A DNA stretch of 64,000 bases from Raillietiella orientalis (GCA_036172245.1 JAYWIR010000016.1:2356001-2420000); one strand, 5' to 3'. Counted from the first letter of the stretch, positions 381 to 64,000 are shown. Made by a program: numbers and translations. Notes: a model not told the origin generated them from the sequence alone.

Positions 381-473
381 AATCATTAACTTACAGCCAA
401 CCTAAACAATTCATTTCACACGAAAGTACCACCAGCACACATGGGATGATAGCCCAAGCCACCAGATAGGTCG

Positions 474-504
474 CGTACCAGATATTAAGCTGATAAGAAC
501 AGAT
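474..504 (-). pseudogene. U2 snRNA internal fragment (U2 nt ~38-68, stem IIa)
   Basis: Minus strand reads ATCTGTTCTTATCAGCTTAATATCTGGTACG, 29/31 identical to the recalled human U2 sequence ATCTGTTCTTATCAGTTTAATATCTGATACG. No U2 5' end precedes it (AATAGA instead) and no clear Sm site follows. Confidence 0.85.
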
Positions 505-989
505 TCTATTGAATTCACAGAACGGTACATGAAATTTAATGCCGCTCGTCCTACATCCTTATTAGTTGCCTGATTTTGTCATTCGCACCACTACAAAGAT
601 GTAATTTGGGAAATCTGTGGCGAATGTGTGATGCGGAATGAGTTCAGACTCAAAGAACTTGAATTCCACACAGCATAAAAAATAAAATCATGGAAGAACG
701 TTGGTTGAAGCAAGCAGAAATAGGTGAATGATGAACCAAATTGGGAACGATGTTGAAAACAACATGGACATTCTCTATGGTAAATAATGAAATCTTGGAA
801 TCTAGAAAGGAGGAAACCTAACACGCTACAGTCATTTTTCGTCTGGATGCCCTGATCCATGGTTGTGCTCAATGAATGTTGCGATTTCCATGACGAGTAA
901 CCCTTTTGTAAGTAAGTGATCTGCTGTATCTTTGAGTATATATTCTGCATTCTATGAATTGAATTGAACGCTCTTTATTTTGAGACATT

Positions 990-1607
990 TTGCATTTTTT
1001 TTTCTTTTGGTTCTCAAAGAGTGCTGAAAAACCGTTCGCCTCCTTAAGAGGGGAATTCACGAAGCTCTTTAACACTGTCTCATGCCACCCGAGGGTGCAT
1101 GTTATCTTCACGTCAGAGTACCCTGGGAAGGTACCTCCCTATGAATCCAAGAGGCTCTGGAGAAAGGAGTTCTTTCTTCTTACTTTTGGGAGGAAACCCG
1201 TAAGGGAACCCTCGCCCGAGCTGTCTCCGAAGGGAATCCCGAATGGAACCGTTCCCTCGTTCTCTCCAGATGGGTCCGCCGGAGGGGGTCCACTCATTTT
1301 CTTTCCGAAGGGAACTCTCAAAGGGATCGCTTCTTGTTTTTATTCCTGTGAAGGGAACCCCAAAGGACGCTTCCAAATTTCTCTAAAGGGCCGCTCCCCG
1401 AAGGGAGCAGCGCGCTTCTTGACACACTGGATCTCCATCCAGTCTTGGGGGTCTTCTCCCCTAAGGAGGAGGATGGCTCCATTTTCAAAACCGGAGGGGA
1501 ACCCTGAAGGGAACCGACTCCTTGATTCTTGGAAGCATCCCCGAGGATCGACTTCCGATCCCGGCCAGTTCATGGAAGCATCCGGTTCCCACCAGTGCCG
1601 CATCCGA
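990..1607 (-). mobile_element. 3' body of a tRNA-derived SINE-like element, interrupted at ~1607 by an L1/Tx1-like insertion
   Basis: Colinear with the copies at 18160-18997, 41600-42255 and 60680-61357: internal GAAGGGAAYCC-rich repeats and a shared A-rich tail. Confidence 0.7.
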
Positions 1608-4600
1608 CGCTGCACGGACGTGTCTTTCGTTCGCTCCGCGCCCGGTGTGTCGACTTCTTTTTCCTAAGTGGTTTGTGTGGATTCGGTGGTGACGAAGGAA
1701 GCAATGCCTGACACCACCACCAACGAAGGCAGGGGAAAGACGCCCTCATCTCCCCCAGAGGCTATGAAGGTGGAGACGTGCGCCCCCACAGAATCGTCCC
1801 TTGAGCCAGCGAGGGCTTGGAATGCGTGACTGCGGCCCTGTCGCCGGCAGCCTGGCCGAACAGAAGGCCTGCATTGAGGAGGGCTACAACTAGTCCTCTT
1901 CTACAAGGTACTCCTCTACACTTATATAGTCCGGAGAGCGCGGCCGCCTTGTCGAAGGCGATGTACGCTCACAGCGTACAACAAGAGCTTCGTGCGATGA
2001 CCGTCCGGAGCGGAGATCAATACGCTGAGGTGGTCTGCAAGCAAGCAGACCTTACCCAACGATTGCTGAGGACCCCCCTTTCTGTGGGAAGCTGGAGGCT
2101 CTTTCCGATCACGGTGAACCGCTCGATGGTGGTCCACCATCTTGGGATAACGTTACGGATGACCAAGGAGTCCGTCCACAAGGAACTCAACAAATATGGA
2201 ACGGTCCACGAGCTGTAGGCGAAGCCCTCTCCCTTCGTGGAGCATAGCGGGCTTTCGGGTGGCCTCGCGGCTGCTCCGATCACCATAGGCGAGGGCTGTG
2301 GGTTGCCCCACAAAATACAGGTCGCCGGGAAACCGGTATACCTGTGGTACGTGAAGAAACCCAAGTACTGCTTCCATTACGAGTGCTCGGGCACTCCAAA
2401 AAGAGGTGCCCGAATGTGCAGTGCCAGGAGTGCCAAGCCCCGTGGCACACCAGTACGGTGTGTCCTCAAAGTACTGTCCGCATCGCGTCTGCCAAAAATG
2501 GCAAAAAGCGCGAGGTTAAAAAATTATAAAAATTTCAGCGAAAGCCGCCGCACAAACTGCTACCTTCGTGCCACTAGCTAAGGCTGTCCTATCGACCTCA
2601 GCCGAAAGTGCTTAAAATGTTGAGAGGGACAGCCAGGAAGGTTGGCAGGTAGTCAGGTATAAAAAAGCCTGAAAAAGGCTGAAAACAAAGAAAAAGCGAT
2701 CACGAAAAAACAAAGAGCTGCCGTGTAGTCGTAGAACGCGTTCTCGCGATCGACCAGCGCGGAGCTGCTGAACTCGTCCTTGCCACGCCACCCCTCGAGA
2801 AAGTTAGCGAGGAGGGGAGCGAGGAGGCGGCGTCCCTCGGAAACGACGTCGAGCGAAAGGAGAAGGAGCTCGCTGCCACGCTGCAGCGACCCTCCAAGGC
2901 CGCGAAAAAGGCCCTGAGGCACCCGGCCTCTACCAAGGGGTCCGAGACCTCGGACTGCGAGGCGGAAGCCAGAAAGGCAACTTCCGCCGCCGCTGAACCC
3001 CGCCGGAAGTCTGGGAGAAATTCCAAGACCATGCGGAGGCACATCGCCCCCGTCGAAGGGGAACAGATCGTCTCCGGAAGCAAAGGTGCACGAGCGTAGC
3101 AATTCGGGACTCATTGCCCGAAGTAGTACCGCGCTCCGAGGCGAATGGGATGAAGGGGGTGGAGGCTGGAAGGGTCTGGTGGTGAACAAGGCGAAGTCGT
3201 CTGTAGTTCCCGTTGGTGCGGCGTGGGCAGGGTGGCTGGGCTGGATCCGACTGAGGATCCCCTCGGGCCGGTACTTAAAGTACCTGGGCGTTCCACTGGG
3301 GAACTTTTGCCCCTCAGAAGCCTGGTCCGAGCGTCTTCAGAAAGCACTGCAGGCGCTCGGCCCGTTCCAATGAGGCAGGTTCTCCCTGCCGAAGCGGGAC
3401 GTGGTGTGGAACGCCTTCCTGGCCCCCTTCCTCCGTCCCCTACTTTTTGTTTGCCCCCCGCCATGCAGCATTAGGGAGCGGACGATGGACCTCCTCCGTA
3501 TCGCCCTCTGGGGCAAAGGGAGACACCGAGTCCCCCTTAAGGACTTGTGGGCTCCACGCCGGACGGCGGTCTAGATCTCTTCCTGATGCTGGAACAAATG
3601 GAACTGCAGCTCCAGTTTCGAACACTTGCCCTCGCGGAAAAGCTCTGGAGCACCACCTGCTGCCAACCTGCACGTCTTCTCTTCCAGCAAGCCACCGACA
3701 GCGTGGGGCTCGCGTCCTTCCTTGCGTGCCCTCCACGCAGCCTCATCCACTGCGGACTGCGCCTTCGGCAGGTGGCCACGCTGGCCACGAACAACGGATG
3801 GATCTCGTGCCGCCCCGCGAACGGTAGTGCCCGGTTGAAGGGAACCGTTCGCACGTGGACGAGGATCCAGGAGCCAAGCGCGAACAGGTGCGACGTTTCG
3901 TGTACGCGCTCAACAACAACTGCACGCTCCGGGAGATCCTGGGAGATCCCGCGAAGAGCGAATGGGCAAGAAAAACCTCGCTTTCCGCTGCGCCGCCCTC
4001 CCTTAGGGAATCGTGAACACGGCTAGGTGGGAGGTTATTGTGGAAATCTCCGGAAGGAGAAGAGGACTGGACAGGTGGATGACAGGTCAGCCCACCGACG
4101 CTGCATCCCCGATTGCTCGACCTGGGACCTTTGCTCTGGGGCGTGCTACTGGCTATTCCGGAAGAAGACCTGCAGTGATCCCCGGTGCTCATAAACACCC
4201 GTGCCCTCCCCTTGGAGTGGTAGGAGTCGGCGTTGATGTTGCTGCACTGGGTCTCCCGTGCAACGCTCGCCGGCATCATTGGCCATGCGGGGGAGAGAGC
4301 CGACTCGAACTGTGCCAGGCGCGGGGAGCGGGAATCCCTCCTGCACCTCCTAGTGGAATGTGATCCCCTGTCCCTTGAAGACGCTTTGCCGCGACCATTG
4401 GAACCCCTGGTGGCAATGCCAGAGATGTTGTGAAGCATCTCTTCCTGAGCGACGCCCCCAAGCCGGCCGCATCCCTAGCAGCACTTTGCTGCCTACGAGG
4501 CGGGAGCGTGGCTGCATGGAGCCATGCCAGAAGAGGCCAGAAAGACTGGAGCGGCAACTATATTGCTATCCTCTTCATGAGGAATGCGTCAAGATGGGAA

Positions 4601-4882
4601 CCATAAAACAGGAACTTGCAAGGATGCAGACGATTCCCTCCAGCACACAGATTCCCTTCCCTTCCCAAACCCTCCCATTTTTTGACTATGTTTTTTGTTT
4701 TCCTTTTTTCTTTTTGTTTGTCTCCCCTTCCCCTGTGCTGCCGAGGTGACCCCGCTGGCCTGCGTACCAGATCCTTGCAGGTTCTTTTTCGATTTCATAA
4801 GTTACGGGGAAGGATCAAACGTGCTGCCACAGACATTTATGTTTATTTCTTATAAATAAAGGACCCGGTGTGACCGGGTGCC
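1608..4882 (+). mobile_element. L1/Tx1-clade non-LTR retrotransposon, internally deleted and frameshifted
   Basis: ORF1 remnant from ATG ~1704 with two CCHC-type knuckles (CFHYECSGH.KKRC; CQECQAPWHTSTVC, ~2370-2465). RT C-terminal motifs GLVVNKAKS and YLKYLGVPLG (~3170-3300). C-terminal zinc motif CARRGERESLLHLLVEC (~4310-4360). T-rich 3' UTR, AATAAA at 4855-4860. Confidence 0.9.
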
Positions 4883-5060
4883 AACCAGTGCCACCTCACC
4901 CGAAGTCTTGTAGGCCAACCAGCGTCATCTTGCGGGTAGGAACTCGAAATCCACGACTCACCTATTCCTTGGCGAAGATCGGATCCCATGGGGATTCGAA
5001 CCCGCAACGCTTGATGCCACGCGCGGAGACCGCCGTGGCCACACGGCCGCGAGCGCGGGC
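4883..5060 (-). mobile_element. 5' part (tRNA-like head) of the SINE-like element
   Basis: Minus strand: GGCC-GTGTGGCCACGGC-GGTC (D-arm/A-box-like), GCGGGTTCGAATCCC (B box), then the family-conserved block GCAAGATGACGCTGGTTGGCC. Confidence 0.8.
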
Positions 5061-5499
5061 TTGTAGCATTCTGAGGCACGTTGCGCTGTTACGCTTGGTT
5101 TGCACGGTTTATGCCCAGAGGAGAGCTTTGAGTTGTTATTATCATCCACTCTGCATTGAGCTTTTTTTGCTGCACCTTGGCTTCCAAATAAAATCTTCAG
5201 TTCTAGATTCTATTTAGCTGCACGTGCATTTTCATTTTCGGAAACAAAAGACGAGAACGATGTCGAAATCTTTTCAGACCAATGTGATTCCTGCATATTC
5301 CCCTTTCTGGAACTTGATATGTAATTTTGTAGACTCATTGCCGAGTGCACGTGGAATTTTTTTCCCTCTTTTGCGTCTTAAGCAAAAGGAAGGAAAATCC
5401 AATTCTGTCAGGAGGAAGTACAGATTTTGTTCATGGGTAGATGCACCTCATTACCGCGCTTCTGACGTCTGAGTGGATTCATTCCAGCACCCCCTAATT

Positions 5500-6549: not shown

Positions 6550-7300
6550 AGAAAATGTTTTTTCAGGGAGGGGAGGGCATGGAAGGGATCACTGCTGACC
6601 TCGATTGGTTTTCTGAATCCTGTTCAGGATTCCGACAAGTGCTGTTCTATTATTATTCCGATGGGGCCATCTTGATGCGGTATCCAGAAGGATCGTCGTC
6701 CAGTGGTTGGTGTTCCTGCTATTTTGCCTTCTCTTGGCGTTCCACCTCGCCCGATTCCGCGAACACAGCGGAGAAGTGCTAGAGACGAGGCGTGGGGCAA
6801 GGCATCACGCATGAAGAGGCTCCAGAAAATGCCTTTAGGGTCGCTTAGTGGGATATTCAGGATCGACGAGAGTCGATCCCAAAGTTCACGGAGGGCGACA
6901 CAGTCTATTAAGAGATGCGGGAAGGTTTCCCTTTCGCCGCATTCTGCACAATGGGCATCCGCGCTCCCAAGTGTCCAGTGAGAGAGGCGTACTCTGCCTT
7001 GGAGTCCCCAATGCAAGAATAGCAACGCCATCTCCTGCCACTTCCGGGGGAGGGTGCCACCGTTTCAACACGCTGGAGGCCACTCCACCTCCTTCGGAGG
7101 TATTGCGAGCAGCTCGCCCCAGCGTGCAAGTCCTTTGGGTGGTACACTCAGTGCCGCAGCGTATCCGCTAGCTGCCGAGTTGTCCACGCCTTCAAGAAGC
7201 CTCTGATGAGGCAGGTCACTTCCCACGTTGCCGGATCGTTGCTGCCCTCAGCGTTCCCAAGAGCTTCCTCCTACACTGCTGTTAGTGCTGATTCCCCACT
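6550..7300 (-). mobile_element. 3' fragment of an L1/Tx1-like ORF2 (diverged subfamily)
   Basis: ORF 6624-7031 has LHWG...CAECGERETFPHLLIDC...LFMRDALPHASSLALLRCVRGI, homologous to 4233-4520. Confidence 0.85.
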
Positions 7301-8329
7301 GTTAGTCGCCTCTGGATGATACCGATCTATTTTCTCTGCATGCTCTGAGTGAACGCAGAGAAAATAGATCGGCGGATGCACCTATTCTTCGCTTCCTCCA
7401 GTGCCAACCGTCCACTAATCAGCAAGGCGAAATGCTCAGAAGTTCAAAAAGGAAGTCAGAATTTTCCTTTGACAGAGGGGGTGCGTGTCCAGGGCCTTCG
7501 CAGCAGCAGTCATTTCTCAAGGATCGCGCTTGCCATTTTTCCACAATCCTCCCCTACTAAGACTGAAGCTTGAAAGAGGCATCCGAGAGCTCACCGAAGA
7601 GAATGTTTGGATTGCTCGCAAAGCAACAGAATATCCATATGTGCACAATTCATCTGTGATCGCTTCGCGATCGAGAGTACTGCATTTTATATGTAAGTAA
7701 TGTACGTAATTCGGATGCACTAACGAGGCCTTCTTGGACACAGTGGTTAGTTAGACGCGCGAGTTTTCCATCTATTGCGTGGCGCTACGAGAACTCCGTG
7801 TCGGCTTCGACGAAACGTGGAAGTCGTTTGATATTTTTCGTTCTGGGATGATGCTGAAAATTTTGCAAGCATGAAGCTAATAACACATGGATTCATTGGA
7901 GTCGTCACAAAGTTTTCCGTTCACGTAACTGAGCTCTTAAGGTGTCATTCGTAGTCACATGCAATTGAGTAAGGCGTTCAAAAATGTGCAATTACCTTTA
8001 TGATTTCATTGTGAAAAAGCAGTGAGCTTGCTGAATTCACCCAAATTTAACCGAAGGTGTTGAATTGCTGTGTGCACTTTCATTGGTTATTTGCTTAACA
8101 TTAGTCTTCTGTTTTTGTTTTTTTTTTTCCTCTCTTCCAGAACTGAATTCAAAGATTCAGGTTTATCCAACAGCTCTGTCGGGAACTGGCGCACTTTCTG
8201 ATGCACAGCATCGTCTTGTCAGGAATTTTCGTCAGCGTCATTAAAAATGAGAACCGAGCTCCTTCCAGACCATTCTGAGACGTTTAGTGGACGAGATTTG
8301 ATTTCTGCTTGAGGGGAAGACCGGCACCA

Positions 8330-16689: not shown

Positions 16690-16852
16690 ATTGGAATTCG
16701 GGGTTCTCTTCAGGGAAGGAAATCAGGAGCGACTCCCTTGGGGAGCCTTTCCGGATTCCCTTCGGAGAAGAAACAATGGAGCGGACTCCTCCAGGAGTCC
16801 CTCCTGGATTCATAGGGTGGCTCCGTCCCGAGGCACCCCCTATCCTGAAGAC
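16690..16852 (+). mobile_element. Internal fragment of the SINE-like family
   Basis: GGATTCATAGGGTG...CCGAGGCACCCCCTATCCTGAAG aligns with the reverse complement of 18331-18390. Confidence 0.7.
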
Positions 16853-18159: not shown

Positions 18160-18997
18160 ATGGGCATCCTTTGGGGTTCCCTTGTCCTCGCTATTTTCCT
18201 TCCAGCTTTTTTTTTTCTTTTTCGGGTTTTCTTTTCTTTGGTTCGCCGAGTACCTCAAGAACCATCGCACGCGTGGCGTCCCGCGCAGCTTTTTGACACT
18301 GTAACACACCATCCGGGAGTGCGTGTAATTCTTCAAGATAGGGGGTACCTCGGAGAAGGGGGCACCCTATGATTCCGGGAAGGACTCCGTAGAAGGGAGT
18401 CCGTTCTTATTAAAGCATGGGGAGCGATCCCTGAAATGGAGATCACCTCCGCCCTGGTTGTCTTCGAATGGGAACCCGAGGGGAATCTCTTCCGGAGGGA
18501 CCCCCGAAGAGGACCGCTCCATTATTTCTTCTCCGAAGGAACCCGAAAAGGGTTCGCTATTAGGAGTTTCTTCTCCGAAGGGAACCTGCGAATTCCCTGT
18601 TTCCTCTGAGGAGAATCCCGTAGAGACGCTTCCAAATTTTCTCTGTAGGGTGCTTTCCGAAGTCATCAATCCACCAACTCCATGTTAATCTATGAAGGGT
18701 CCCCTCGCTCGAGGGGGACGAGGACTCCATTTTCACAACTGGAGGAGAGACCCGAAGGGAACCGGGCTCTTTGATTCCTAGAAGAGGAGGGTGAACTTCC
18801 AATCCTGGCCAGTCAACAACCAGTCAACTTCCATCGTTGCTGCGCCCGAAGCTCGTGGGCCAGCTAGTGTCATCCTGAGGGGGGAAGGGACTCAATACCC
18901 ACGACGCACCCTCGATCCTTCCCCGGGTAGGATTTGAACTTGCGACGCTTGACGCCACGCGCAGAGACCTCAGCCACAGGGTCTTCGACACGGGCCA
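18160..18997 (-). mobile_element. Near full-length tRNA-derived SINE-like element
   Basis: Minus strand: GACC-CTGTGGCTGA-GGTC D-arm, AAGTTCAAATCC degenerate B box, GGATGACACTAGCTGGCC block, GAAGGGAAC-type internal repeats, A-rich tail. Confidence 0.8.
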
Positions 18998-18999
18998 TG

Positions 19000-21900
19000 T
19001 GGCTCGTCTTGGGTCTTCCCCCCAAACAAGAATCCTCAGCCTTTTCTCCCTGCAGCCTGAACCAAGAATGGGGGTGGAACAGGTATCCCGGATGTTGAAG
19101 GCAGCTGAGACGGAAACAGCGACCCGGCAGAGCATTCCACACTTTGGAAAGCAATGTGACGCGGACTCCCGGAAGTGTGGTACGTTAGTCGCCTGAAGTG
19201 AGGGGATCCCTTCCTTCGGGAAGGAGACAGATCCTTGCTGATCGAAAAGAATCAGGCACGTAGCCTGCGCGCACCCATCAGTGGTAGTTCCACCATGAGG
19301 TGCCGTCGTCACCCAGCAGGCGTCCACCCCGATCGGGCGCATTCCGCTCTTCGGGCCATTCTCGGGAACGGCTATGCCCATCGCGGCTCGCCAAGGGCGG
19401 CTGGGGGCCTTCGGAAAGCCAACAGCAGCCAACACCCGAGGTGCTGCACAGCGCGGGCTTTGCTCAGGCCGCATCGGCATACCGCTCGGAGCAACCGTTG
19501 CAGACGGCAGAGAGAACAGTGACGGCACGCGTCCAGGCGCGTTCCTGACCTCCCGGATCTTGCGCATCTGCTGACCCCTAGTGCCAAGATTTCCTCCGGC
19601 CCAGCGGTACGTTTGCATCCGGATATGAGGGGCCTGCACACACATCCGAGTGCCCTCTCCTTGTGTGCGTGATGCCAACTGAAAGTTTGCCTTTTGGAGA
19701 AGCCCGGATGAGAACACCACTTGCGAAAAGAGTAGCGGAATCTTCAAGAATGCCTCTGTCTTCCATTCCGGAGTGGGCAGCTGAAACCGGTCCAGGAGAG
19801 CTCAAAGAGGTCAATCTTTTAGCAGCCGGTGCGAGAGGGTCACTCTCCCGAATCTGGTTCTATCTCGGCTCTGGGGCGGACTGAGAGGTCCGGCTGCATC
19901 GGAGGTCGTCGTGTGAGCACGCACGAGTGCCTCAGTGTCTCTGAAACTCGCGCCAAGAGTTTGGAAGGCGTGCACCTCCGCAAACACCTCACTTGCCTTT
20001 ACACGGCTGACCCTAGTGCCGCGTGTGGTCCAATGACAGGTGAATGCCTCTTCGAGCGCGACTCGATCTCGCCTAAAGCTTCCCTTGCAGCCTTCGTGGG
20101 ATTGTGGTGGAAAGAAGTCGCGCCGAAAGAGGCCAGTAGAATGATGAGGTCATCGCAATTGTCTGCTCCTTCATGAGGAAGGCAGCCAGATGGCCACATC
20201 TCTGCCAACAAAAGGAGCAAGCTGCACAGATCCTCCAGAGGATACTGAGGACGCCAGGAAGAAATATGTGATCCCTTCCTTTCCACTCCCCCAAACAGTT
20301 TTGGACTGAACTAGTGTGTGTGTGTTTTTGTTCACCCCTTTCCCCACTCCTGTGCGGATCTGCTTCTCGTGAACAGCTGTTCACGAGAGCAGTGTCTCCG
20401 AGGCGTTCCCCTTCGTGGTGGTGACGTGAAGCCACTACGAAGGAAGACATTTTTTTAATCTTGTACATGGTTGTTTTTTTCGTAAATATTTTTTTTTACA
20501 ATAAACAAAGGCTTGACTGGGTGAAAAACAACAGGTGAATGTTGAAAACCCAAACCAGATAAAGAGCTCTAAGAAATGACGGACAGCCATCGCGGAGCAC
20601 ATTCAAGAGAGCCCGGACTTGCCGAACGTTCTGTTTCACTCGGCACTCCTGAATGACGCTCGTGACCACGAAGTCAGACCTCACGTGTTTACGGAAAGAT
20701 GGTGGAAGTGAGGGAAGGAAGCCTCTCCTCCCATCCTTGTTGTGCGTCTCCAATTTTTTTTTCCAGGAAGGGGCACACGCGACCTCAGCTCCCGCCTCGC
20801 CTCATCAGAGACGGAACAGGAGATGCTCGTCGAGATGCGACCTCGCATGTGGGGAGCCGCATCTCCGTGGGCGGCGGTGGCGTGCTTGCTGCGGCGCCTC
20901 CATTCCCGATGGCCACCGTTTCGGAAACGGGACTGTCTGGCTGCCTGCAGGAGAGCAGGATCTGCTATCAAGTCTCCTCTGTGTCATCATCAGTTCAGGC
21001 TGCTGCTGTTTCCAGTGACTGCTCCTCCCAGGGAACGAAGACCCTCTATCCCTTGCATTATTCCTGCGAATCACGAGGGGGATTAGACTCCTTGGAAGGG
21101 GATGCTGAGGGCTGAAGTTGTGATTTCGGAAGGATCCCCCTGTGGTCACGGATCGTTATCTGCCTCCTTGTTGGAGGAGTCCCCGGCGTTCGAGGCACCA
21201 GCTTCTTCCCAAGTTACATTGCGGCCCACAGCCCTGGGATTGGGGCGCCCCTTCTTCCTTTTGTGAATCGTACAAGTTGCCGGCCGCTGCGGACGACGCA
21301 TCGGTCCCTTTCTGAGATCTTCTTGTGCTCTCTGAGATGGTGCCTGGGATCGCGATCTCAGGCACCACCTTAGACAGCATGTGCACTCGTGTGCGGTTGA
21401 AAACTTCCGCCTTCCCGTCGCGAGTTTTCGTTTTCGGTTGAAGACACCCTCGGAGCCCGTCCAGCAGCCAGCACGGACGAGGAGTTCCTTGAGGATGCTG
21501 ACTGAATTGCGCTCGTCGCGTTATGCTGCAGTCTCCTTCCGATCGGCGTTACCTGGGCTCACGCTGTGAATGGCGGTGCACGTGTTTCAACCTTCGCGGG
21601 GTTCGGAGCAATGGTTCTGGACACTTCAGTTGTTTTCAGCATCTTTTCTCCTTCCGGTCTGCATCTATCCAGCGTAGCCGATAGCGCCGGAGTTTTTCGA
21701 GGCTGCGATGCAGCGTCTCCTGCGAAAGCAGACTGCCCGGGAACCGGCGGGACGGGGCCGCAGGGCATCCCCTGCCTCTATCGGTACTTTGACAACGGCA
21801 TTCCTCTTCTGGGAAGGTTCCTCCGCGTGCACTTCTCTTTCAACAGCCCTTCAACAAGCCCAAAGGCTAGTCGAGGAGCTGCTTTTACTTGATTGCCTTT
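19000..21900 (-). mobile_element. Cluster of decayed non-LTR fragments (RLE-like C-termini and a zinc-knuckle ORF1 piece)
   Basis: KSGMRPIGV (~19330) and HVRSDFVVT (~20670) resemble the RPD motif; CSFCWQRCGHLAAF (~20200) is a knuckle remnant. GC-rich with many stops and frameshifts. Confidence 0.45.
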
Positions 21901-41599: not shown

Positions 41600-42255
41600 T
41601 GGAAATCCTTTTGGGTTCTTTTCTGTCTTCGTCGTTTTCCTTTCAGCTCTTTTTTCGTTCTCTGAGAACTTCAAGAACTGTCACGCGCCTGGTGTCCCAC
41701 GCAACTCTTTGATGCCGTACCGCGCCACCCGAGAGTGCGTGTAACTCTTCAAGATAGGAGGTACCCTATGAATTCCAGGAAGGACTCCGAAGAAGAGAGT
41801 CTATTCTTCTTTAGTGGTTGGGGATCCCCAAAGGAGAACTCCACCCTGGCTGTCTCCGAAGGGAACTCTGAAGGGACGCTTCCGAAATTTCTCAGAAGGG
41901 CGCTCCCCGAAGGGAGCGGCGCGCTTCTTTGCACTTTGGAGAGGTGTCACCAATCACCAGCTGCGTGGTACGAGGCGGAAGGTCCCCTGTGAGGGAACCG
42001 GACTCCTTGATTCCGTTTCCAGGAAGGACCTCGGAGGTCGACTCCCAATCCCGGCCGCTTATCGGGGGCATCGGTTTGAACCGCCAACAGTGCTGCCGCG
42101 TCCGAATGGAAGGCAACCAGCGTCATCTTTCGGGATTGATTCAAACCCACCCTCCCCCCACTCTCGGGGTCGATTCTTCCCGAGTATTCGAACCTGCGAC
42201 GCTTGGTAATGCGACGCCTTGCAGAGACCGTGACCACTTGGCCTTCGACGCGCGT
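41600..42255 (-). mobile_element. tRNA-derived SINE-like element
   Basis: Minus strand GGCC-AAGTGGTCAC-GGTC (A box/D arm), GCAGGTTCGAATAC (B box), AGATGACGCTGGTTGCC block, internal repeats and shared tail. Confidence 0.8.
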
Positions 42256-42879
42256 ATGTACTGGGTATGTACCGCATGGCATCCGACTCTCGAAGACTTA
42301 ACCAAAGTGCGCGGAAGTCCTGAAAGACCAGGGAGGTCTGCTCACGAATCCACCTTTTTCTGGTTTTCCGGATGACTCCTTGTACACAATGCAGAGCTCC
42401 GGAGCTCAAGAGGTACAGATGTGGCCACCCGCAGCAAGGAGGGAGCATCGGGGTACCCAGCTACAGCACAGGAAATGCCTCTGCGCTGGAGTCTACTCGA
42501 AAGAAAAGAAAAAAAAAAAAAAAATTTCCTCCTAAGTGTGCCCACGGGAAGCTGGAAACTCCTCTATAGCGCCACATGGGACTTTTTAGGTTTTTATCCC
42601 GTCTTCCCCTCCTCGTGTGGGCGGATGGGGTGTACCATTTACACGCGGCTCCGAACAAACACATGACAACTCATCGTATTCCATGAAGCTCAAAGCATCC
42701 CCTAGCCCCTCCCTCTCCCTCTTCCCCATCCAGCCTGGACTAATTCTCGGATGGAAACCACATATCTTCCGAGCCTACGCCCACCGCCTAACTATCGCTC
42801 CAAATCCAGCTGCCATGGCAATTCACATACCTCCCCCCAGAGTCCTCAGAAAATACACGCAATAGATGTAGGATGGCTT

Positions 42880-44361: not shown

Positions 44362-44541
44362 GAGCCACGTTGGAGATCGCGTGGCTGCGGTCTCCGCGCG
44401 TGACACCTGGAATCGCGGGTTCGAATCCCGTCGGGGATGGGGGAGCGACCGACCCAGAGAGTGCGTCGTTACGTTTTTCAAGCACCCCCGGCAAGATGAC
44501 GCTGGTTGGCCTACAAGACTTCGGGTGAGGTGGCACTGGTT
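44362..44541 (+). mobile_element. tRNA-like head of the SINE-like element, ending at an L1/Tx1-like 3' end
   Basis: GATC-GCGTGGCTGC-GGTC D arm, GCGGG-TTCGAAT-CCCGT T arm, conserved block GCAAGATGACGCTGGTTGGCC. Confidence 0.8.
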
Positions 44542-45896
44542 GGCACCCGGTCACACCGGGTCCTTTATTTATAAGAAATAAACATAAATGTCTGTGGCAG
44601 CACGTTTGATCCTTCCCCGTAACTTATGAAATCGAAAAAGAACCTGCAAGGATCTGGTACGCAGGCCAGCGGGGTCACCTCGGCAGCACAGGGGAAGGGG
44701 AGACAAACAAAAAGAAAAAAGGAAAACAAAAAACATAGTCAAAAAATGGGAGGGTTTGGGAAGGGAAGGGAATCTGTGTGCTGGAGGGAATCGTCTGCAT
44801 CCTTGCAAGTTCCTGTTTTATGGTTCTCATCTTGACGCATTCCTCATGAAGAGGATAGCAATATAGTTGCCGCTCCAGTCTTTCTGGCCTCTTCTGGCAT
44901 GGTTCCATGCAGCCACGCTCCCGCCTCGTAGGCAGCAAAGTGCTGCTAGGGATGCGGCCGGCTTGGGGGCGTCGCTCAGGAAGAGATGCTTCACAACATC
45001 CCTGGCATTGCCACCAGGGGTTCCAATGGTCGCGGCAAAGCGTCCCCAAGGGACCGGGGATCACATTCCACTAGGAGGTGCAGGAGGGATTCCCGCTCCC
45101 CGCGCCTGGCACAGTTCGAGTCGGCTCTCTCCCCCGCATGGCCAATGATGCCGGCGAGCGTTGCACGGGAGACCCAGTGCAGCAACATCAACGCCGACTC
45201 CTACCACTCCAAGGGGAGGGCACGGGTGTTTATGAGCACCGGGGATCACTGCAGGTCTTCTTCCGGAATAGCCAGTAGCACGCCCCAGAGCAAAGGTTCC
45301 AGGTCGAGCAATCGGGGACGCAGCGTCGGTGGGCTGACCTGTCGTCCACCTGTCCAGTCCTCTTCTCCTTCCGGAGATTTCCACAATAACCTCCCACCTA
45401 GCCGTGTTCACGATTCCCTAAGGGAGGGCGGCGCGGCGGAAAGCGAGATTTTTCTTGCCCATTCGCTCTTCGCGGGATCTCCCAGGATCTCCCGGAGCGT
45501 GCAGTTGTTGTTGAGCGCGTACAGGAAACGTCGCACCTGTTCGCGCTTGGCTCCTGGATCCTCGTCCACTTGCGAACGGTTCCCTTCAACCGGGCACTAC
45601 CATTCGCGGGGCGGCACGAGATCCATCCGTTGTTCGTGGCCAGCGTGGCCACCTGCCGCAGGCGCAGTCCGCAGTGGATGAGGCTGAGTGGAGGGCGCGC
45701 AAGGAAGGACGCGAGCCCCACGCTGTCGGTGGCTTGCTGGAAGAGAAGACGTGCAGGTTGGCACCAGGTGGTGCTCCAGAGGTTTTCCGCGAGGGCAAGT
45801 GTTCGAAACTGGAGCTGTTGTTCCATTTGTTTCAGCATCAGGAAGAGATCTAGACTGCCGTCCGGCGTGGAGCCCACAAGTCCTTTAGGGGGACTC
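44542..45896 (-). mobile_element. 3' 1.35 kb of the L1/Tx1-like element, near-identical to 3528-4882
   Basis: Reverse complement aligns with copy 1 with only scattered substitutions; the ORF-track peptides are identical or nearly so. Confidence 0.95.
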
Positions 45897-45941
45897 TCTG
45901 CATTGCTGGATCCAGGTGGGGTCATCGCGCCGCCCTCTAGA

Positions 45942-45968
45942 GGTCTTTTGGCTAAGATCAAAGTGTAG
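45942..45968 (+). pseudogene. U2 snRNA 5' fragment (U2 nt ~11-36)
   Basis: GGTCTTTTGGCTAAGATCAAAGTGTAG versus U2 GGCCTTTTGGCTAAGATCAA(A)GTGTAG. The AAAG form is the invertebrate-type variant; the match stops inside GUAGUA. Confidence 0.8.
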
Positions 45969-46108
45969 AGGTATTGGGCGGTGCACTGGATGGCACCTTT
46001 ATCGAGAAGTCCTCTTGTTGCCTTGATCCAAGCGGCGACGATCCCGCGTAGGCAGCACAGGGCTGCTAACGAGGTCCCAGGCCGGAGGGAGTCGGAAACG
46101 AAGAGGGC

Positions 46109-46843
46109 TTTCAGAAGACATTCGACTGCGTCGATCAGGGGCTTCTTCTGAAGCTGTTGGAACGCTTGGGCTTCCCGGCCGCGTTTTCGGTCTATCTGCG
46201 CTCCAGCTGGCGCCACACGCTCGTCAATATCTCTTTCAGTGGGCAGACGGTGCACGGCGTGCCAGTGCGACGCTGCATACGGCAGGGAGAGCCTGAGCTC
46301 CCTGCTCTTTAGCACCTATTTCGAATTGGTGCTGAGGGCATACAGGGAGACTCTGGCTCTCCACCCGCGCGTATGTCCCGGAACGCCTGCCGTCTCAGCA
46401 TAAGCGGACGATCCTCTGCTGCTGCTCCCCATGTCCAACCCGGTTGCGCACTCGACGGTTTCTTCGAGCTGCTCAGTCGTGAGACGGGCCTGTCTGAACA
46501 AGGCGGAGTCATCCGTGGTTCCCGTTGGTGCGGCGTGGGTTGGGTTGCCGGACTGGATCCGATTGAGTATCCCCACGGGCCAGTACTTAAAGTACCTGGG
46601 CGTTACTCTGGGGGACTTTTGCCCCTCAGAAGCCTGGTCCGAGCGTCTTCAGAAAGCACTGCAGGCGCTCGGCCCCTTCCAACGAGGCAGTTTTTACCTG
46701 CCGCAATGGGCCGCGGTGTGGAACGCCTTCGTGGCCCCCTTCCTCCGTCCCCTACTTTTTGGGTTCCCCCCGCCATGCAGCATTAGAAAGCGGACGATGG
46801 ACCTCCTCCGTATCGCCCTTTGGGGCAACGGGAGGCCCCGAGT
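46109..46843 (+). mobile_element. RT-domain segment of the L1/Tx1-like family (pseudogenised)
   Basis: FQKTFDCVD, IRQG.SLSSLLF, VSA*ADD, LNKAES and YLKYLGV; the 3' half closely matches 3180-3531. Confidence 0.9.
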
Positions 46844-47475
46844 GAAGCTGCAGGACGAGGGGAAGTGTGAATCCTGAGTGTGCCAGGTGTGGGGAGCGGG
46901 AATCCCTCCCTCACCTGTTAGTTGACTGTTACCCTTCGGCACCTTTAGGAACGTCTTGGAACTTCCCTGGGGATCCCAGTTGGCAGCACCCCCAGAGACG
47001 TTTTCCGGCTTCTCTTCGTGCGGGACGCCCTGCAGCCAGCCTCAGCCCTGGCAGCACTATGCTGCATCCATGGAATTGTGGCGGCTTGGAAGATGAAGGA
47101 TGAAGGAAGCCCAGGATGAAGACGAGAACAAGAGGGACGTAATCTCGTATGCTGTTCGCTTCCTGCAGAGAGCTACCGGATGGTCCAACTGGGACGATTG
47201 AGGAAGGATCTCCAGGGCATCCTGCAAAGCATGGACCCTCCTTCCAGTGGACAGTGATCCCTTTCTGATCCTTCAATTTCTTTTTTTTTCTTATTGTTTC
47301 ATTTTTCTTTTTGTTTTTTCCCCATCCCCTTCCACTGCCGAGAAGAGTCACGCTGGTCTGCGTCCCGGAGTCCCGGCAGGTCCTGCTAAATGTTGGCCGT
47401 TAGTGGGGCCTTGTACCACGTTTCGTAATAACTTTATGAAGAGTTTGAATAAACGTCCCGGCATATCCGAGTGGC
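46844..47475 (+). mobile_element. 3' end of a diverged L1/Tx1-like subfamily
   Basis: CARCGERESLPHLLVDC, T-rich UTR, CTGCGT stem-loop, AATAAA at 47448-47453. Confidence 0.85.
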
Positions 47476-47479
47476 AACT

Positions 47480-49700: not shown

Positions 49701-50499
49701 ACCACCCTCGCCACGTCAATGCCCTTCCTACGAAAGACACTAGGCAGCAGCCGGACACCGAGGTGGCAGGTCTCCTTCCGGATCGAAGGCAGAGAAACGT
49801 TGATGAGCGGTTGGACCATGGGACGCGGACGCCTGGCGAGAGACGCGGAAACACCGAGTCCCTCCTGCTCTACCCCGAGTTCTGGAGGGGAAGGGGAGGT
49901 TTCATCCACACCGCCTCACGAGGACGTCCTCTCGGCAGTTCAGGGACTAGGATCCCGTCCCCTTCCGTCGGATCCCTCCACAGATCGAGTAAGTTTCCGA
50001 GATGCTCGCGAGAGGGCGGGCGAAGATCCCGTACACAAGGAAAAGTACGCAGAAGAAGAAAAAGATCCAGTCCCCGGATTTTGGGATTCGCAAGATCAAG
50101 GGGCCGAATGCTGCGAAGAGTAGCTCTTTCGGAGCATTCCTGGGAGAAGCACGAGCCTAAAAAGAGACTGAGTTCAGTGGGGAGAGAGCTGCGGGGACAA
50201 GGAAAAATCCCCAAATGCTTCTCCCCTTCTTAGTTTTTTATTTTTTTCCACGGGATTCCGACCGGGAAGAAGGCAGTCTGGGATTTCAAAGCGGCACGCA
50301 CGTCCCGGACATCAAAGGAACGGAAAAGAACGGAATTCGCAGGGCGGAGGGAGCAAAAAGATTCCGAGGAGGCGGGGACTGTGGACGTGCCTTCCGGAGC
50401 GAAGGGGATTTCCGGACCGGGACCTCAGGAAGGCACGTCCGCACTTTGCGAAGGAAGCTGGCCTGAAGGGCGCGCGCCCCTTGCACCCGGACGACTGTT

Positions 50500-59430: not shown

Positions 59431-60679
59431 TTGGCGTATATCCCGAAAATACTGTTAGTTTTGTACCATTGCCGTACCCTTTTTTATGCACTGCGGCTGC
59501 CTTACTGTTATCTTCGATTCTTTCGGTGCTTCGCCCTTTTCCAGATCTCATGATCTCGAGTATTCTACGTCCAAGAAAGAAACTTTTCTTACCATTGAGA
59601 GCATTCGCCCCGAGACAAAGTAAAGAATCAGTCCTTGGTCTCCTTCCTCCGCTTTTCCCCTTCTAGAACCGTTGATAAATACTCTTAACGGCAGAGAGAC
59701 GCCCAGTGTGATCGTCTTCTCTTTTCTCTAAAGCATCAGATGTAGCTACAGTTTCGAGAGTGTTCTGAACAGGCCCGCTGGAGAATGGTGACTCCCGGTG
59801 CTTCCCACTTGATCCGTGCTACCAGCACTCTTGCCTCTCCGAAATCGCAGTTTTCTTGCTGAGTCATCGATTAGTGACCTGGGGATTACTCACCTCCGAC
59901 CAACGCGGTTGGCGGTATCTCTAGAGAGCGACGTCCATCCAGGAAGGGCATTTAACCGAACCGCAGGGACATATCTACAGTCCGAAAACCCGAAGGCTCA
60001 TCACTGGACGGAAGAGCCCTTCCGCACTGTGGTCTCCACACGATCTGCATGTTCTGGTACCGAATGACCGCACTTTCTTGGGTTCAGAGGGCTGCAGGCT
60101 GGTGATCGATCCCTTTTCTCACGTTTGTGTTCAACATGGAGTCTCCCAACGCAATCTCCAGAGCTGCCTTTTCTAACGCCCACTTTGCTTCCTTGTCAGG
60201 TTCTCCATGTGACCAAGGAAACAGGAAAAGAGAGAAGCAACCCGTGCAGACAAAAGCAGATTTGCCTCCTCCCTTCTCCCCTTCCTCCTCGATGCCCCGC
60301 TAGCCAATTCCGCAAGAATTCATTCCGCAAGAATTTCCAAACCGCGTCCCCCGTGCAAGGTTCCCTTGAAATTGGCGTATTCCAAACTCAGGAGGGAATG
60401 GACGATATGAACTGGAGCGGACGCGGTTGCATGGATCAGATTATGTGGTCTTCTGCTGCTCAGAGAGAAAGCGCCCGACGATTTGCCCTCGGAATCCAGC
60501 TAGGCTGTGTGAGATCTGAGTATGTGAAATCTCAGCATCACGAAGATGGAAGCAAAGATGTGGTAGGAGGCAAAGGGAGTAGATCCACGCAACAATGTCT
60601 CAAAAAGTGTTCAATTGACCTATGCACACTGAAGAAGACGCAGTTGAGAGCAATTTCTTTCCAAGAGTCCATGGAAATT

Positions 60680-61357
60680 GAGGATGCCTCTTTCGGTCCT
60701 GATCTTTTTTTGGTTTGCCAAGTGCTGAGGAACCCTTCGCCTCCTTAGGGGCGCTCATGAAGCCCTTTGGCACTGTCCACGCCACCCAAGGGTGTGTGCA
60801 TCTCTTCATACCCTGGAAGGACCACCCCATGAATCCAGGAAGGCTTCGAAGGAAGGAATCCTTTACTCTCACACTTGGGAGAAAACCACGAAACGAGCCC
60901 TTGGTCTGGTTGTCTTTGAAGGGAAGCCCGAAGGGAACCTCTTCCTTATTCTTTCCAGAGGGGTCTCCCAGAGGGAATTCACTTCTCATTTCTTCTCCGA
61001 AAGGAACCAGGAAAGGATCCACTCCTAGAATTTCTCCTCCGGAGGGAACAATGCAAGGGAACCGCTCCTTCTTTCCTCCTCTGAAGAGAATCCCGAATGA
61101 ATCTGCCTACGTGATTCCTGGAAGGATCCCAAAGTCAACTTCCCATCTGTGCCAGTCAACGGAGGCATCCGGTTTCAACCAGTCCTGCACCCGAAACCAA
61201 CCGAGACCAATCAGCGTCATCCTGCAGAGGAGGGGGGACTCGAAACCCAAGACGCGTCTCCCATTCTCGGCGTCGATCCTTCTCCGGGTAGGATTCGAAT
61301 CTGCAACCCTTGGTGCTACGCGCGGAGACCGCAGCCAAGCGGCCGCCAACACGACCT
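60680..61357 (-). mobile_element. tRNA-derived SINE-like element
   Basis: GGCC-GCTTGGCTGC-GGTC D arm, AGATTCGAATCC B box, GGATGACGCTGATTGGTC block, internal repeats; tail matches ~1000-1100. Confidence 0.8.
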
Positions 61358-61699
61358 TGGTCCTGATCAAGTCTCCATCTTGGTAGCAGAGAAGTTTCAC
61401 ATTCTCAAATCAGCGATGTTTGTACATTCAGTTCGAGGCAGCGAAGGAGTCGCGAGGGTCATCAGGGCTCTTCGAAGGTAGAAACTGTCTGAAATCCCAG
61501 AGCTTCGAATCGGTTTTCCCCTCGAGTTCCCAGCTTGTCGGGAGTCCCGAACCAGCTGGACGTATCCACTTCACTGCTTCCTCATGACCAAATTAGGATA
61601 TGCGGATGCTGGAGTCATCCGGAACGAATGATCGGAGAACGTGGTGTTCCAGCCTTGTGTTCTGTCCTTGCATGACCTTAACGGTTTTTGAAAATGTCT

Positions 61700-63849: not shown

Positions 63850-64000
63850 GAGGTTAATGGCACCTCTTCAGAGAGTGCAAAGAAGCGCGCCTTTCCCTTC
63901 TGGGAGCGCCCTTCTGAGAAATTTCGGAAGCGTCCCTTCGAGGTTCCTTTCAGAGGAGTAAACAGGAGCGGTTCCCTCGCGGGTTCCCTCTGGAGAAGAA
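63850..64000 (+). mobile_element. Internal fragment of the SINE-like family running off the window edge
   Basis: Reverse complement of 41860-41950 (AGTGCAAAGAAGCGCGCC...GGGAGCGCCCTTCTGAGAAATTTCGGAAGCGTCCCTTC). Confidence 0.8.

What the first reader, a model, noticed from the sequence alone, without database searches (positions are those of the whole stretch)
1591..5060. An L1/Tx1-like family that may home into a tRNA-derived SINE, carrying a SINE-derived 3' tail
Seen: copy 1 (1608-4882, +) sits antisense inside a SINE, with the body on the left (990-1607) and the head on the right (4883-5060). It is flanked by an imperfect duplication, ACCAGTGCCGCATCCGA (1591-1607) and ACCAGTGCCACCTCACCCGA (4884-4903). 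Copy 2 (44542-45896, -) ends at the same SINE position. The next 51 nt are identical in both copies (4883-4933 = reverse complement of 44491-44541) and end at the best-conserved SINE motif CAGCGTCATCTTGC. Beyond that the two flanks stay in SINE register but belong to clearly different SINE copies. Known: Tx1-clade elements often target multicopy sequences. Inference: a read-through transcript with a target-homologous tail directs insertion into dispersed SINE copies, a LINE parasitising a SINE. The alternative is duplication or gene conversion with a breakpoint inside the SINE.
Basis: partly seen in the sequence, partly recalled or inferred. Interest (0 to 1): 0.8.

Follow-up and report, generated by a model that had tools for sequence, protein, structure and literature searches.

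The report
LINE copies lodged in a SINE
Two copies of a decayed LINE retrotransposon sit at the same spot, in the same orientation, in two different copies of a SINE and share 51 identical flanking bases; this suggests, but with only this window cannot prove, that the LINE homes into the SINE.

Summary
A roughly 790-nt SINE-like repeat with a tRNA-like head has 7 loci in the window. Five of them include the site, and 2 of those 5 hold a LINE there.

Copy A1 (1608-4882, +) splits SINE S1. Both flanks map to overlapping SINE positions, but the right-hand copy of the overlap differs from the left by a 3-nt indel and 2 substitutions.

Copy A2 (44542-45896, -) is 98.2% identical to A1 with no indels and abuts SINE S2 at the same position. 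The next 51 nt are 51/51 identical. Beyond them the two SINE heads are only 62% identical.

The LINE belongs to the L1/Tx1 superclade. Its closest solved relative is human L1 ORF2p. The clade is unresolved, and no endonuclease is visible in the window.

The mechanism cannot be settled. No genome, sequencing run or close relative was reachable, so the decisive tabulation of 3' flanks was not possible.
- For an RNA-carried tail: the foreign right-hand overlap in A1, and zero differences in the last 336 nt.
- For DNA-level copying or gene conversion: A1 and A2 share in-frame stops, so their ancestor was already non-coding. Identity is patchy, the copies lie 40 kb apart, and A2 sits in a scrambled LINE cluster.

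My odds: targeting with a carried tail 0.40, targeting plus gene conversion 0.25, one insertion plus DNA-level copying 0.27.

The parts
964..1607 (-). SINE copy S1, body and A-rich 3' part (the SINE sense strand is the window minus strand). It ends at SINE model position 598.
   Evidence: nhmmer E 8.4e-170, model 12-598; alignment with three other copies.
1591..1607 (.). Left copy of the target overlap, ACCAGTGCCGCATCCGA. It fits the SINE consensus without an indel.
   Evidence: Alignments; sequence read.
1608..4882 (+). LINE copy A1. It has a complete-looking 5' end, decayed ORFs and an internal deletion. No endonuclease and no N-terminal half of the RT are present. The 3' boundary is ambiguous up to about 4885.
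   Evidence: BLASTN. tblastn of P0001 matches only its residues 356-588, at 3173-3873. No Pfam hit for 8 ORF pieces. Many stops in all frames.
1704..2520 (+). ORF1 remnant, broken by stops and frameshifts. It holds one CX2CX4HX4C zinc knuckle at 2422-2463.
   Evidence: Motif search in the translation; ORF list. Pfam found nothing at E<=0.1.
3173..3873 (+). C-terminal half of the reverse transcriptase and the thumb region (YLKYLGV at 3272-3292, GGLDL at 3565-3579).
   Evidence: tblastn of P0001, 65% and 51% identity; motifs located.
4311..4361 (+). Decayed C-terminal Cys/His motif (CARRGERESLLHLLVEC) of the kind found at the end of L1/Tx1-type ORF2.
   Evidence: Comparable motifs in other window LINE pieces give weak zf-RVT hits, E 7e-4 and 7.5e-3, both below the Pfam cut-off.
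4855..4882 (+). LINE 3' end: AATAAA (4855-4860) followed by a hairpin at 4861-4882. There is no poly(A) tract.
   Evidence: RNA fold -16.3 kcal/mol, z -3.19, 1 of 200 shuffles as good. A pattern shared with a related LINE end has 3 matches in the window and 0 in shuffles.
4883..4933 (+). 51-nt SINE-derived tail, antisense to the SINE, identical in both LINE copies. It holds the right copy of the target overlap (4884-4903) and ends in CAGCGTCATCTTGC.
   Evidence: 0 differences; about 70-75% identity to other SINE copies; motif scan.
4934..5065 (-). SINE copy S1, tRNA-like head with an exact B box.
   Evidence: nhmmer model 576-778, E 3.4e-47. Weak tRNA-Sec and mascRNA matches on the minus strand.
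44362..44490 (+). SINE copy S2, head only (SINE sense on the plus strand), 62% identical to the S1 head. No SINE body was found beyond the LINE.
   Evidence: nhmmer model 576-751, E 6.3e-26; pairwise alignment 85/138; sensitive rerun.
44491..44541 (-). Second copy of the 51-nt tail.
44542..45896 (-). LINE copy A2, truncated at its 5' end at A1 position 3528. It has 24 substitutions against A1 and no indel.
46115..46843 (+). Fragment B1, the RT region of an A-like LINE, inverted relative to A2. It is 89.7% identical to A1 3183-3531, and the similarity ends within a few bases of A2's truncation point.
46844..47478 (+). Fragment B2, the 3' end of a related LINE family (about 71% identical to A) with the same terminal pattern. 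It is followed by TCCGA and then a further 5'-truncated LINE (C, about 47481-48270).
60650..61399 (-). Uninterrupted SINE copy (empty site). The other two empty copies are at 18185-19006 and 41600-42292.
   Evidence: nhmmer; alignments.

Best explanation
A LINE family of the L1/Tx1 superclade inserts preferentially at one position of a dispersed SINE-like repeat with a tRNA-like head, antisense to the SINE. In this window the family is represented by a non-coding, internally deleted derivative, which would have to be mobilised in trans.

The mobile unit is the LINE plus a 51-nt tail that is itself an antisense SINE segment. The proposed course of events is this:
1. During target-primed reverse transcription, the nicked SINE DNA pairs with the end of the tail at the conserved CAGCGTCATCTTGC block.
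2. The cDNA therefore copies the donor's tail.
3. The second strand is cut about 30 nt upstream, after ...TCCGA.

The result looks like a 17-20-nt target-site duplication whose right-hand copy is foreign.

Shown: the two junctions, the identical tail, the different SINE heads, the mismatch between left and right overlap, and superclade membership.

Inferred: RNA carriage of the tail, priming at the motif, trans-mobilisation, and any genome-wide preference.
For: - Two of two A-family 3' ends abut the SINE at model position 576 in the same orientation, in SINE copies whose heads are 62% identical. Two of the 5 SINE copies that include the site are occupied.
- The tail is 51/51 identical between copies but only about 70-75% identical to other SINE copies.
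- In A1 the right overlap differs from the left by a 3-nt indel and 2 substitutions, although A1 and A2 differ by only 1.7%. This is expected if the right copy came in with the element.
- There are no differences in the last 336 nt (3' UTR plus tail), where 6.2 are expected from CpG and non-CpG rates (P about 0.002). This fits constraint on a functional 3' end that includes the tail.
- The 3' end has a hairpin and no poly(A), as in LINEs that recognise a specific 3' end.
- The tail stops at a block that ties for the best-conserved 14-mer of the SINE.
- Precedent, from passages read. Tx1-clade families target other transposons: Tx1D piggyBac, Mariner-N4_AMi and some LTR elements (PMC4494074). 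R1Bm needs a downstream target sequence in its RNA for accurate priming, and 3' transduction is reported for R1Bm and R7Ag (PMC7265360).
Against: - There are only two junctions, 40 kb apart, and their independence is not shown.
- A1 and A2 share all frameshifts (no indels) and 3 of A1's 4 in-frame stops in the C-terminal frame. Their common ancestor was already non-coding. This is automatic for a DNA-level copy but needs a trans-mobilised dead lineage under this model.
- Identity is patchy. All 24 differences lie in 3538-4126 and 4369-4597, with identical blocks of 242 and 336 nt. Gene conversion also produces such patterns.
- A2 has no SINE body on its 5' side. It ends in a scrambled LINE cluster.
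- The inverted fragment B1 ends where A2 begins but is 10% diverged from A1, not 1.7%. That hints at a mosaic.
- In the simple R1Bm-type annealing model, the downstream sequence of a new copy comes from the target, not the donor. Priming at the distal end of the tail is therefore an extra assumption.
- AATAAA lies 22 nt before 4882, so a normal transcript end would not include the tail.
- No endonuclease of this family was seen.
Confidence: 0.4

Rival explanations
1. The LINE family does target this SINE site. A1 and an older A-family copy at the A2 locus were independent insertions. The shared 51 nt and the 98% identity come from later non-allelic gene conversion between the two loci. The tract is bounded on one side by the end of collinear LINE homology at the A2 locus (position 3528) and on the other by the last well-conserved SINE block.
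For: - Patchy identity, with identical blocks of 242 and 336 nt between blocks diverged by about 3%.
- B1, which is inverted and ends at A1 position 3531 where A2 begins (3528), is 89.7% identical to A1. This is what one would expect if the unconverted divergence of the two elements is about 10%.
- The loci are only 40 kb apart.
- The foreign right-hand overlap in A1 is explained if A1 was the recipient.
Against: - Between A2 and B1 lie 219 nt of other material: a weak U2-like piece and a LINE fragment of another subfamily. A2 plus B1 is therefore not a clean twin-priming product.
- The diverged blocks differ by about 3%, not 10%.
- A conversion tract reaching 51 nt into SINE flanks that are otherwise about 62-75% identical would need to end exactly at the motif.
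Confidence: 0.25
2. There is no targeting. One old LINE insertion (A1) happened to land in a SINE. The A2 segment is a DNA-level copy of A1 3528-4933. It could have arisen by repair of a break in SINE S2 that used the S1/A1 locus as template, invading at the 14-19-nt conserved motif and ending by microhomology (GAGT). Unequal recombination or template switching between SINE copies is another possible route.
For: - The copied unit was already non-coding: shared stops, no indels.
- One in-register junction at a conserved motif plus one junction with 4-nt microhomology in a rearranged region.
- Proximity of the two loci.
- The left/right overlap mismatch in A1 (3 events in 17-20 nt) is reachable by decay if A1 is 5-10% old, and A1's many disabling mutations allow that.
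Against: - Homeologous invasion between SINE copies only about 62-75% identical is inefficient.
- It does not explain why the last 336 nt have no differences while the rest has 2.2%.
- A related LINE family's 3' end (47448-47478) is followed by TCCGA, the same 5 nt that precede the A1 5' junction. This is a weak hint of repeated use of the site.
Confidence: 0.27
3. Chance or assembly artefact. Either two unrelated insertions coincide, or the A2/S2 junction is a false join at the shared motif.
For: A run of 387 identical bases (4598-4933 plus adjoining sequence) at two loci is the kind of repeat at which assemblers can err. No reads could be laid to check.
Against: - Coincidence of position, orientation and 51/51 identity is about 1e-7 or less (my arithmetic).
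- The shared exact block beyond which the flanks differ is only 19 nt of SINE motif, too short for a typical false join.
- A1 and A2 differ at 24 positions upstream, so they are distinct copies.
Confidence: 0.03

Closest known systems
Tx1-clade target-specific LINEs that insert into other transposons: Tx1L in Tx1D, and Tx1-Mar in Mariner-N4_AMi (PMC4494074, passages read)
   Same: A LINE of the L1/Tx1 superclade found repeatedly at one position of another interspersed repeat, without a poly(A) tail. The targets are multicopy and presumably harmless.
   Different: - The target here would be a SINE. The passages I read list piggyBac, Mariner and LTR elements, microsatellites, satellites, U2, U5 and 5S as Tx1 targets, and no SINE.
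- Clade membership is untested.
- There are only 2 junctions, against dozens in those studies.
- A donor-derived 51-nt target-like tail is not described in the passages read.
R1Bm and R2: target sequence in the read-through or co-transcribed RNA helps priming (PMC7265360, passages; PMC4494074)
   Same: Homology between the 3' extension of the LINE RNA and the target is proposed to position reverse transcription.
   Different: - In those systems the downstream sequence of the new copy is the target's own, and all targets are near-identical rDNA.
- Here the targets are 25-40% diverged, and the new copies appear to keep the donor's 51 nt.
- R1 and R2 are different clades.
L1 3' transduction
   Same: Sequence 3' of the element travels with it and marks copies that share a source.
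   Different: - A transduced segment normally ends in a poly(A) tract and lands at unrelated sites with a fresh duplication (my knowledge).
- Here there is no poly(A), and the segment is homologous to, and in register with, the new target.
Non-autonomous internally deleted LINEs (mentioned for L1 and Vingi in PMC4494074)
   Same: A1 keeps its 5' and 3' ends but lacks the endonuclease and half of the RT, and its ORFs are decayed.
   Different: Amplification of this derivative is not shown. Only two copies are seen, and one of them is 5'-truncated.

Membership tests
Non-LTR retrotransposon, L1/Tx1 superclade | Reverse transcriptase closer to L1-type than to R2-type enzymes | tested here: met
   Window RT pieces are 65-79% identical to P0001 (P0001 was found with E 7.6e-77). 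P0001 matches human L1 ORF2p at E 7e-40 to 5e-39, against 7e-17 or weaker for R2 proteins. It matches Pfam RVT_1 at E 4.7e-24. Caveat: L1 ORF2p was the only non-R2 LINE protein among the 10 solved matches.
Non-LTR retrotransposon, L1/Tx1 superclade | APE-type endonuclease at the N-terminus of ORF2 | tested here: inconclusive
   No endonuclease-like segment was found in the window with 7 full-length relatives as queries. Those relatives (26-30% identity) carry PF03372 + PF00078 +/- PF13966. P0001 is cut off before the endonuclease.
Non-LTR retrotransposon, L1/Tx1 superclade | ORF1 with a CCHC knuckle, and a C-terminal Cys/His motif in ORF2 | tested here: met
   CX2CX4HX4C at 2422-2463 and a decayed CX2(C)...HX4C motif at 4311-4361. 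Pfam gave no hit on the A1 pieces. Other window LINE pieces gave only sub-threshold zf-RVT hits.
Tx1 clade | RT groups with Tx1 references in a phylogeny | not testable with these tools
   No named Tx1 or L1 reference set could be fetched. Source names are generic and unreliable. One plant protein there is labelled 'Transposon TX1'.
Target-specific LINE | Many independent insertions at the same target position, with varied 5' truncation | tested here: inconclusive
   2 of 2 A-family 3' ends lie at SINE model position 576, and one is full at its 5' end while the other is truncated. Their independence is not established. No genome or reads were available.
3' transduction | Shared flank beyond the element's end, followed by poly(A) and a new target duplication | tested here: not met
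   The shared 51-nt flank is present. No poly(A) follows it, and the flank continues in register into the target SINE.
tRNA-derived SINE (SINE2) | tRNA-related head with pol III A and B boxes | tested here: inconclusive
   An exact B box (reverse complement of GGTTCGAATCC) is read. ARAGORN finds 0 genes. Rfam has no gathering-level hit. The best tRNA-type match is 14.7 bits, E 2.2.
tRNA-derived SINE (SINE2) | Short, dispersed, non-coding copies with an A-rich 3' end and target duplications | tested here: inconclusive
   7 loci, 4 of them near full length, with an A-rich end. The unit is long for a SINE (about 700-830 nt). No flanking direct repeat of 8 nt or more was found for 4 of 4 copies. 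The copies are about 25-30% diverged.

The most novel reading that the evidence does not exclude
A non-autonomous L1/Tx1-like lineage has fixed an antisense SINE segment as its 3' tail and uses RNA-DNA homology at a conserved 14-19-nt SINE block to choose and prime its insertion sites, rather than relying only on endonuclease specificity. It would then home into old, diverged SINE copies across the genome, replacing about 30 nt of each target with its own tail. That would be a LINE parasitising a SINE, the reverse of the usual relation.
Probability: 0.3. Interest if true: 0.75.

Novelty: new variant of a known kind. Interest (0 to 1): 0.45.

Why it matters
Site-specific LINEs are studied as natural models for programmable, RNA-templated insertion.

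If this family picks diverged SINE copies through a short homologous RNA tail, it would be a natural case of target choice guided partly by the template RNA in an L1/Tx1-type element. It would also add SINEs to the list of repeats used as safe havens by LINEs.

If instead the pattern comes from gene conversion or repair copying, it is an ordinary example of homeologous repeats recombining in a TE-dense region. It would then also be a caution against reading shared flanks as transduction.

Tried and rejected
Searches for more copies (none succeeded):
- Whole-genome search: no genome is held for this window.
- Sequencing runs: none was listed for 4300-5300, and no RNA holder was listed. Read laying could therefore not be used.
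- Metagenome contigs: an exact 26-nt LINE-end pattern gave 0 matches. A P0001-based scan gave 7 loci at 22-61% identity over short stretches, none close.
- Prokaryote genome contigs gave 1 distant locus at 26%. Viral contigs gave 0 loci.
- Earlier scan notes: none for this genome and no look-alike windows.

Protein-level searches:
- Protein search with A1 3541-4023: no hit among 476 candidates.
- Pfam on 8 A1 ORF pieces: 0 families.
- Pfam on 30 other window ORFs: only two weak zf-RVT hits.

Ideas considered and dropped:
- That B2's 3' flank is SINE-derived. Only TCCGA, or at most CCGAAGC, matches, and the same bases align about as well to the 5' end of the next LINE, fragment C (reading). I count it as a weak hint only.
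- That weak nhmmer hits at 52204-52251 (E 2.5) or 63858-63997 are the missing body of S2. The first looks like chance, and the second is 19 kb away with a full SINE in between.
- That A2 plus B1 is a clean twin-priming product. The breakpoints coincide, but 219 nt of other material intervene and the identities differ (89.7% against 98.2%).
- That the SINE is mobilised by this LINE. Their 3' ends differ: the SINE's is A-rich, while the LINE has a hairpin and no A tract.

Literature:
- Four searches listed no paper describing a LINE that targets a SINE.
- Motif strings from the tail and the LINE end occur in no paper searched.
- The supplementary figures of PMC4494074, which hold the target tables, were not seen.
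Full report
**What is there.**

The window is eukaryotic, TE-rich DNA. AT-rich stretches of 28-40% GC alternate with repeat blocks of 50-62% GC. No genome is held for it.

The stretch 964-1607 plus 4881-5065 is one copy (S1) of a SINE-like repeat about 790 nt long. A profile built from four copies gives 8 nhmmer hits at E<=0.01, which make 7 loci:
- S1, split in two;
- 18185-19006, 41600-42292 and 60650-61399, all near full length and uninterrupted;
- 44362-44543, head only (S2);
- two body fragments, 16697-16851 and 63858-63997.

The copies are about 25-30% diverged from one another. Only 23% of the columns are invariant among four copies.

The head carries an exact pol III B box on the minus strand of S1. 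ARAGORN finds no tRNA. Rfam has no gathering-level hit. The best tRNA-type match is tRNA-Sec at 14.7 bits, E 2.2. A tRNA origin is therefore likely but not proven. The other end of the repeat is A-rich. No flanking direct repeats of 8 nt or more survive around 4 of 4 copies.

**The two LINE copies.**

A1 (1608-4882, +) splits S1. A2 (44542-45896, -) matches A1 3528-4882 at 98.2% over 1355 nt, with 24 substitutions and no indel.

The next 51 nt are identical in both copies. After that, 41 of 57 ungapped positions differ. With gaps allowed, the SINE heads are 85/138 = 62% identical.

In profile coordinates, the left flank of A1 ends at position 598 and the right flanks of A1 and A2 both begin at 576. 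The three uninterrupted SINE copies carry this segment once. So A1 looks like a target-primed insertion with a 17-22-nt target overlap.

The right-hand copy of the overlap (ACCAGTGCCACCTCACCCGA) differs from the left (ACCAGTGCCGCATCCGA) by a 3-nt indel and two substitutions. The left copy is the one that fits the SINE consensus without an indel.

The tail is about 70-75% identical to the other SINE copies. Its perfect identity between A1 and A2 is therefore not common descent of two SINE copies. It ends at CAACCAGCGTCATC..TTGC, a block that ties for the best-conserved 14-mer of the SINE (10/14 invariant columns; motif scan).

**What the LINE is.**

A1 is a decayed element.
- An ATG at 1704 opens an ORF1 remnant that is broken in several places. 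It holds one CX2CX4HX4C knuckle at 2422-2463.
- Bases 2520-3170 match nothing.
- Bases 3173-3873 encode the C-terminal half of an RT and the thumb region.
- A decayed Cys/His motif lies at 4311-4361.
- The 3' UTR ends in AATAAA (4855-4860) and a hairpin at 4861-4882 (-16.3 kcal/mol, z -3.19). There is no A tract.

Pfam does not recognise the A1 pieces.

A neighbouring RT fragment (47662-48282, read through one TAA as X) finds a single close protein, P0001 (619 aa, 66% identity, E 7.6e-77).
- P0001 matches human L1 ORF2p at E about 1e-39, against 7e-17 or weaker for R2 proteins.
- It matches Pfam RVT_1.
- Its full-length relatives are only 26-30% identical. They have the architecture Exo_endo_phos + RVT_1 +/- zf-RVT and come from ticks, lizards, frogs, plants and fungi.

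The family therefore belongs to the L1/Tx1 superclade. Whether it is Tx1 proper could not be tested. No endonuclease was detected in any window copy. The APE type is inferred from distant relatives only.

A related family's 3' end at 47448-47478 shares the pattern AATAAA-SNN-CCCGG-N5-CCGRGTGSCAAC (3 matches in the window, 0 in shuffles). This places the true LINE terminus at ...CAAC (4885). It also shows up to about 6 nt of microhomology with the SINE (C[AC]ACCAGTG).

**How it most likely works.**

The simplest reading that covers all junction features is as follows. The mobile unit is the LINE plus the 51-nt antisense SINE segment. Reverse transcription is primed where nicked SINE DNA pairs with the end of that segment at the conserved block. 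The new copy therefore keeps the donor's 51 nt. The second-strand break falls after ...TCCGA, about 30 nt upstream in SINE coordinates.

This explains three things:
- the foreign right-hand overlap in A1;
- the sharp switch from 100% to 62% identity at 4933/4934;
- the position of the switch at a conserved block.

It also fits the absence of any difference in the last 336 nt. There, 6.2 differences are expected from the CpG and non-CpG rates of the rest (P about 0.002), as if the 3' UTR plus tail were constrained in the source lineage.

Precedents exist for the ingredients, from passages I read:
- Tx1-clade families target other transposons (PMC4494074).
- R1Bm needs downstream target sequence in its RNA for accurate priming.
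- 3' transduction is reported for R1Bm and R7Ag (PMC7265360).

Two steps are assumptions:
- In the plain annealing model, the downstream DNA of a new copy is the target's. Priming must therefore occur at the distal end of the tail.
- The element must be mobilised in trans.

**Evidence pointing the other way.**

- A1 and A2 share every frameshift and 3 of A1's 4 in-frame stops in the C-terminal frame. The fourth, at 4080, is a CGA-to-TGA change private to A1. Their common ancestor was already non-coding. This is automatic for a DNA-level copy but requires a dead, trans-mobilised lineage under retrotransposition.
- The 24 differences are clumped: 18 in 3538-4126, 6 in 4369-4597, and none in 4127-4368 or 4598-4933. 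That is a pattern gene conversion also gives.
- The two loci are 40 kb apart.
- A2's 5' side has no SINE body. It runs into a patchwork:
  - 27 nt of unassigned sequence;
  - a weak, internally deleted U2-like piece (45930-46001, 15.1 bits, E 0.63);
  - a 115-nt minus-strand LINE C-terminal fragment of another subfamily;
  - a plus-strand A-like RT fragment B1 (46115-46843);
  - the 3' end of a related family (B2, to 47478);
  - a further 5'-truncated LINE (C);
  - a minus-strand LINE inserted into C.
- B1 is inverted relative to A2, and its similarity to A1 ends at A1 position 3531, where A2 begins (3528, shared GAGT). This geometry resembles twin priming. But B1 is 89.7% identical to A1, while A2 is 98.2% identical. 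If A2 and B1 were one element, A1 and A2 must have been homogenised later. That would be gene conversion over the collinear part, with the tract ending in the SINE at the conserved block.

In that scenario the SINE targeting survives, as two independent insertions at one site, but the RNA-carried tail does not.

A third scenario needs no targeting. It is break repair in S2 templated by the S1/A1 locus, invading at the 14-19-nt motif and finishing by microhomology. A1's mismatched overlap would then be ordinary decay of an old insertion.

**Weighing.**

Chance coincidence or a false assembly join is very unlikely (about 0.03). I put about 0.65 on the family really preferring this SINE site. That splits into 0.40 with a carried tail and 0.25 with later conversion. 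I put 0.27 on a single insertion plus DNA-level copying.

A weak extra hint for repeated use of the site is that B2's terminus is followed by TCCGA, the same 5 nt that precede A1's 5' end. Five bases cannot carry weight.

**What could not be done.**

The decisive test is a tabulation of the 3' flanks of all close copies, and it needs the genome. No sequencing run was listed. No close DNA or protein relative with context was reachable. Earlier scan notes hold nothing.

**Novelty.**

Target-specific L1/Tx1-type LINEs that live in other repeats are known. In the passages I read, and in four literature searches, no case of a SINE as the target appeared, and none of a donor-derived target-homologous tail kept in new copies. 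The supplementary target tables of PMC4494074 were not seen. If real, this is a new variant of a known kind. If it is conversion or repair copying, it is ordinary.

Noticed in passing
window 458-508 (-): Partial U2 snRNA-like sequence, Rfam U2 model positions 34-84, 40.1 bits against a gathering score of 46, E 1.4e-4. It is probably a truncated U2 pseudogene or retrocopy in AT-rich DNA just left of SINE S1.
   Followed up: partly
window 45930-46001 (+): Weak, internally deleted U2-like piece (15.1 bits, E 0.63 in a 301-nt search). It holds a run resembling the U2 5' region and sits 34 nt from the truncated 5' end of LINE copy A2, on the opposite strand. U2 is a known target and 5' add-on of Tx1-type elements (PMC4494074), but this match is too weak to interpret.
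   Followed up: partly
window 45897-50300: A dense patchwork of at least six LINE fragments from several subfamilies in both orientations (A2, a 115-nt C-terminal fragment, B1, B2, C, a minus-strand element from about 48278, and another RT piece at 49218-49613). The end of B1 coincides with the 5' truncation point of A2.
   Followed up: partly
window 51868-52162 and 53669-53992: Inverted repeat pair of about 300 nt at 84.6% identity, of unknown nature.
   Followed up: no
window 6627-7064 (-): C-terminal piece of another, more distant LINE with a weak zf-RVT match (E 7.3e-4, below the cut-off). Its 3' side shows no SINE sequence (reading).
   Followed up: partly
window 7322-7372 and 59022-59069: Two short palindromic stretches, each matching its own reverse complement, at 86% and 92%.
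   Followed up: no
window 57964-58479 (-): 172-aa open frame in a GC-rich block with no Pfam hit. It may be a further transposon remnant.
   Followed up: no
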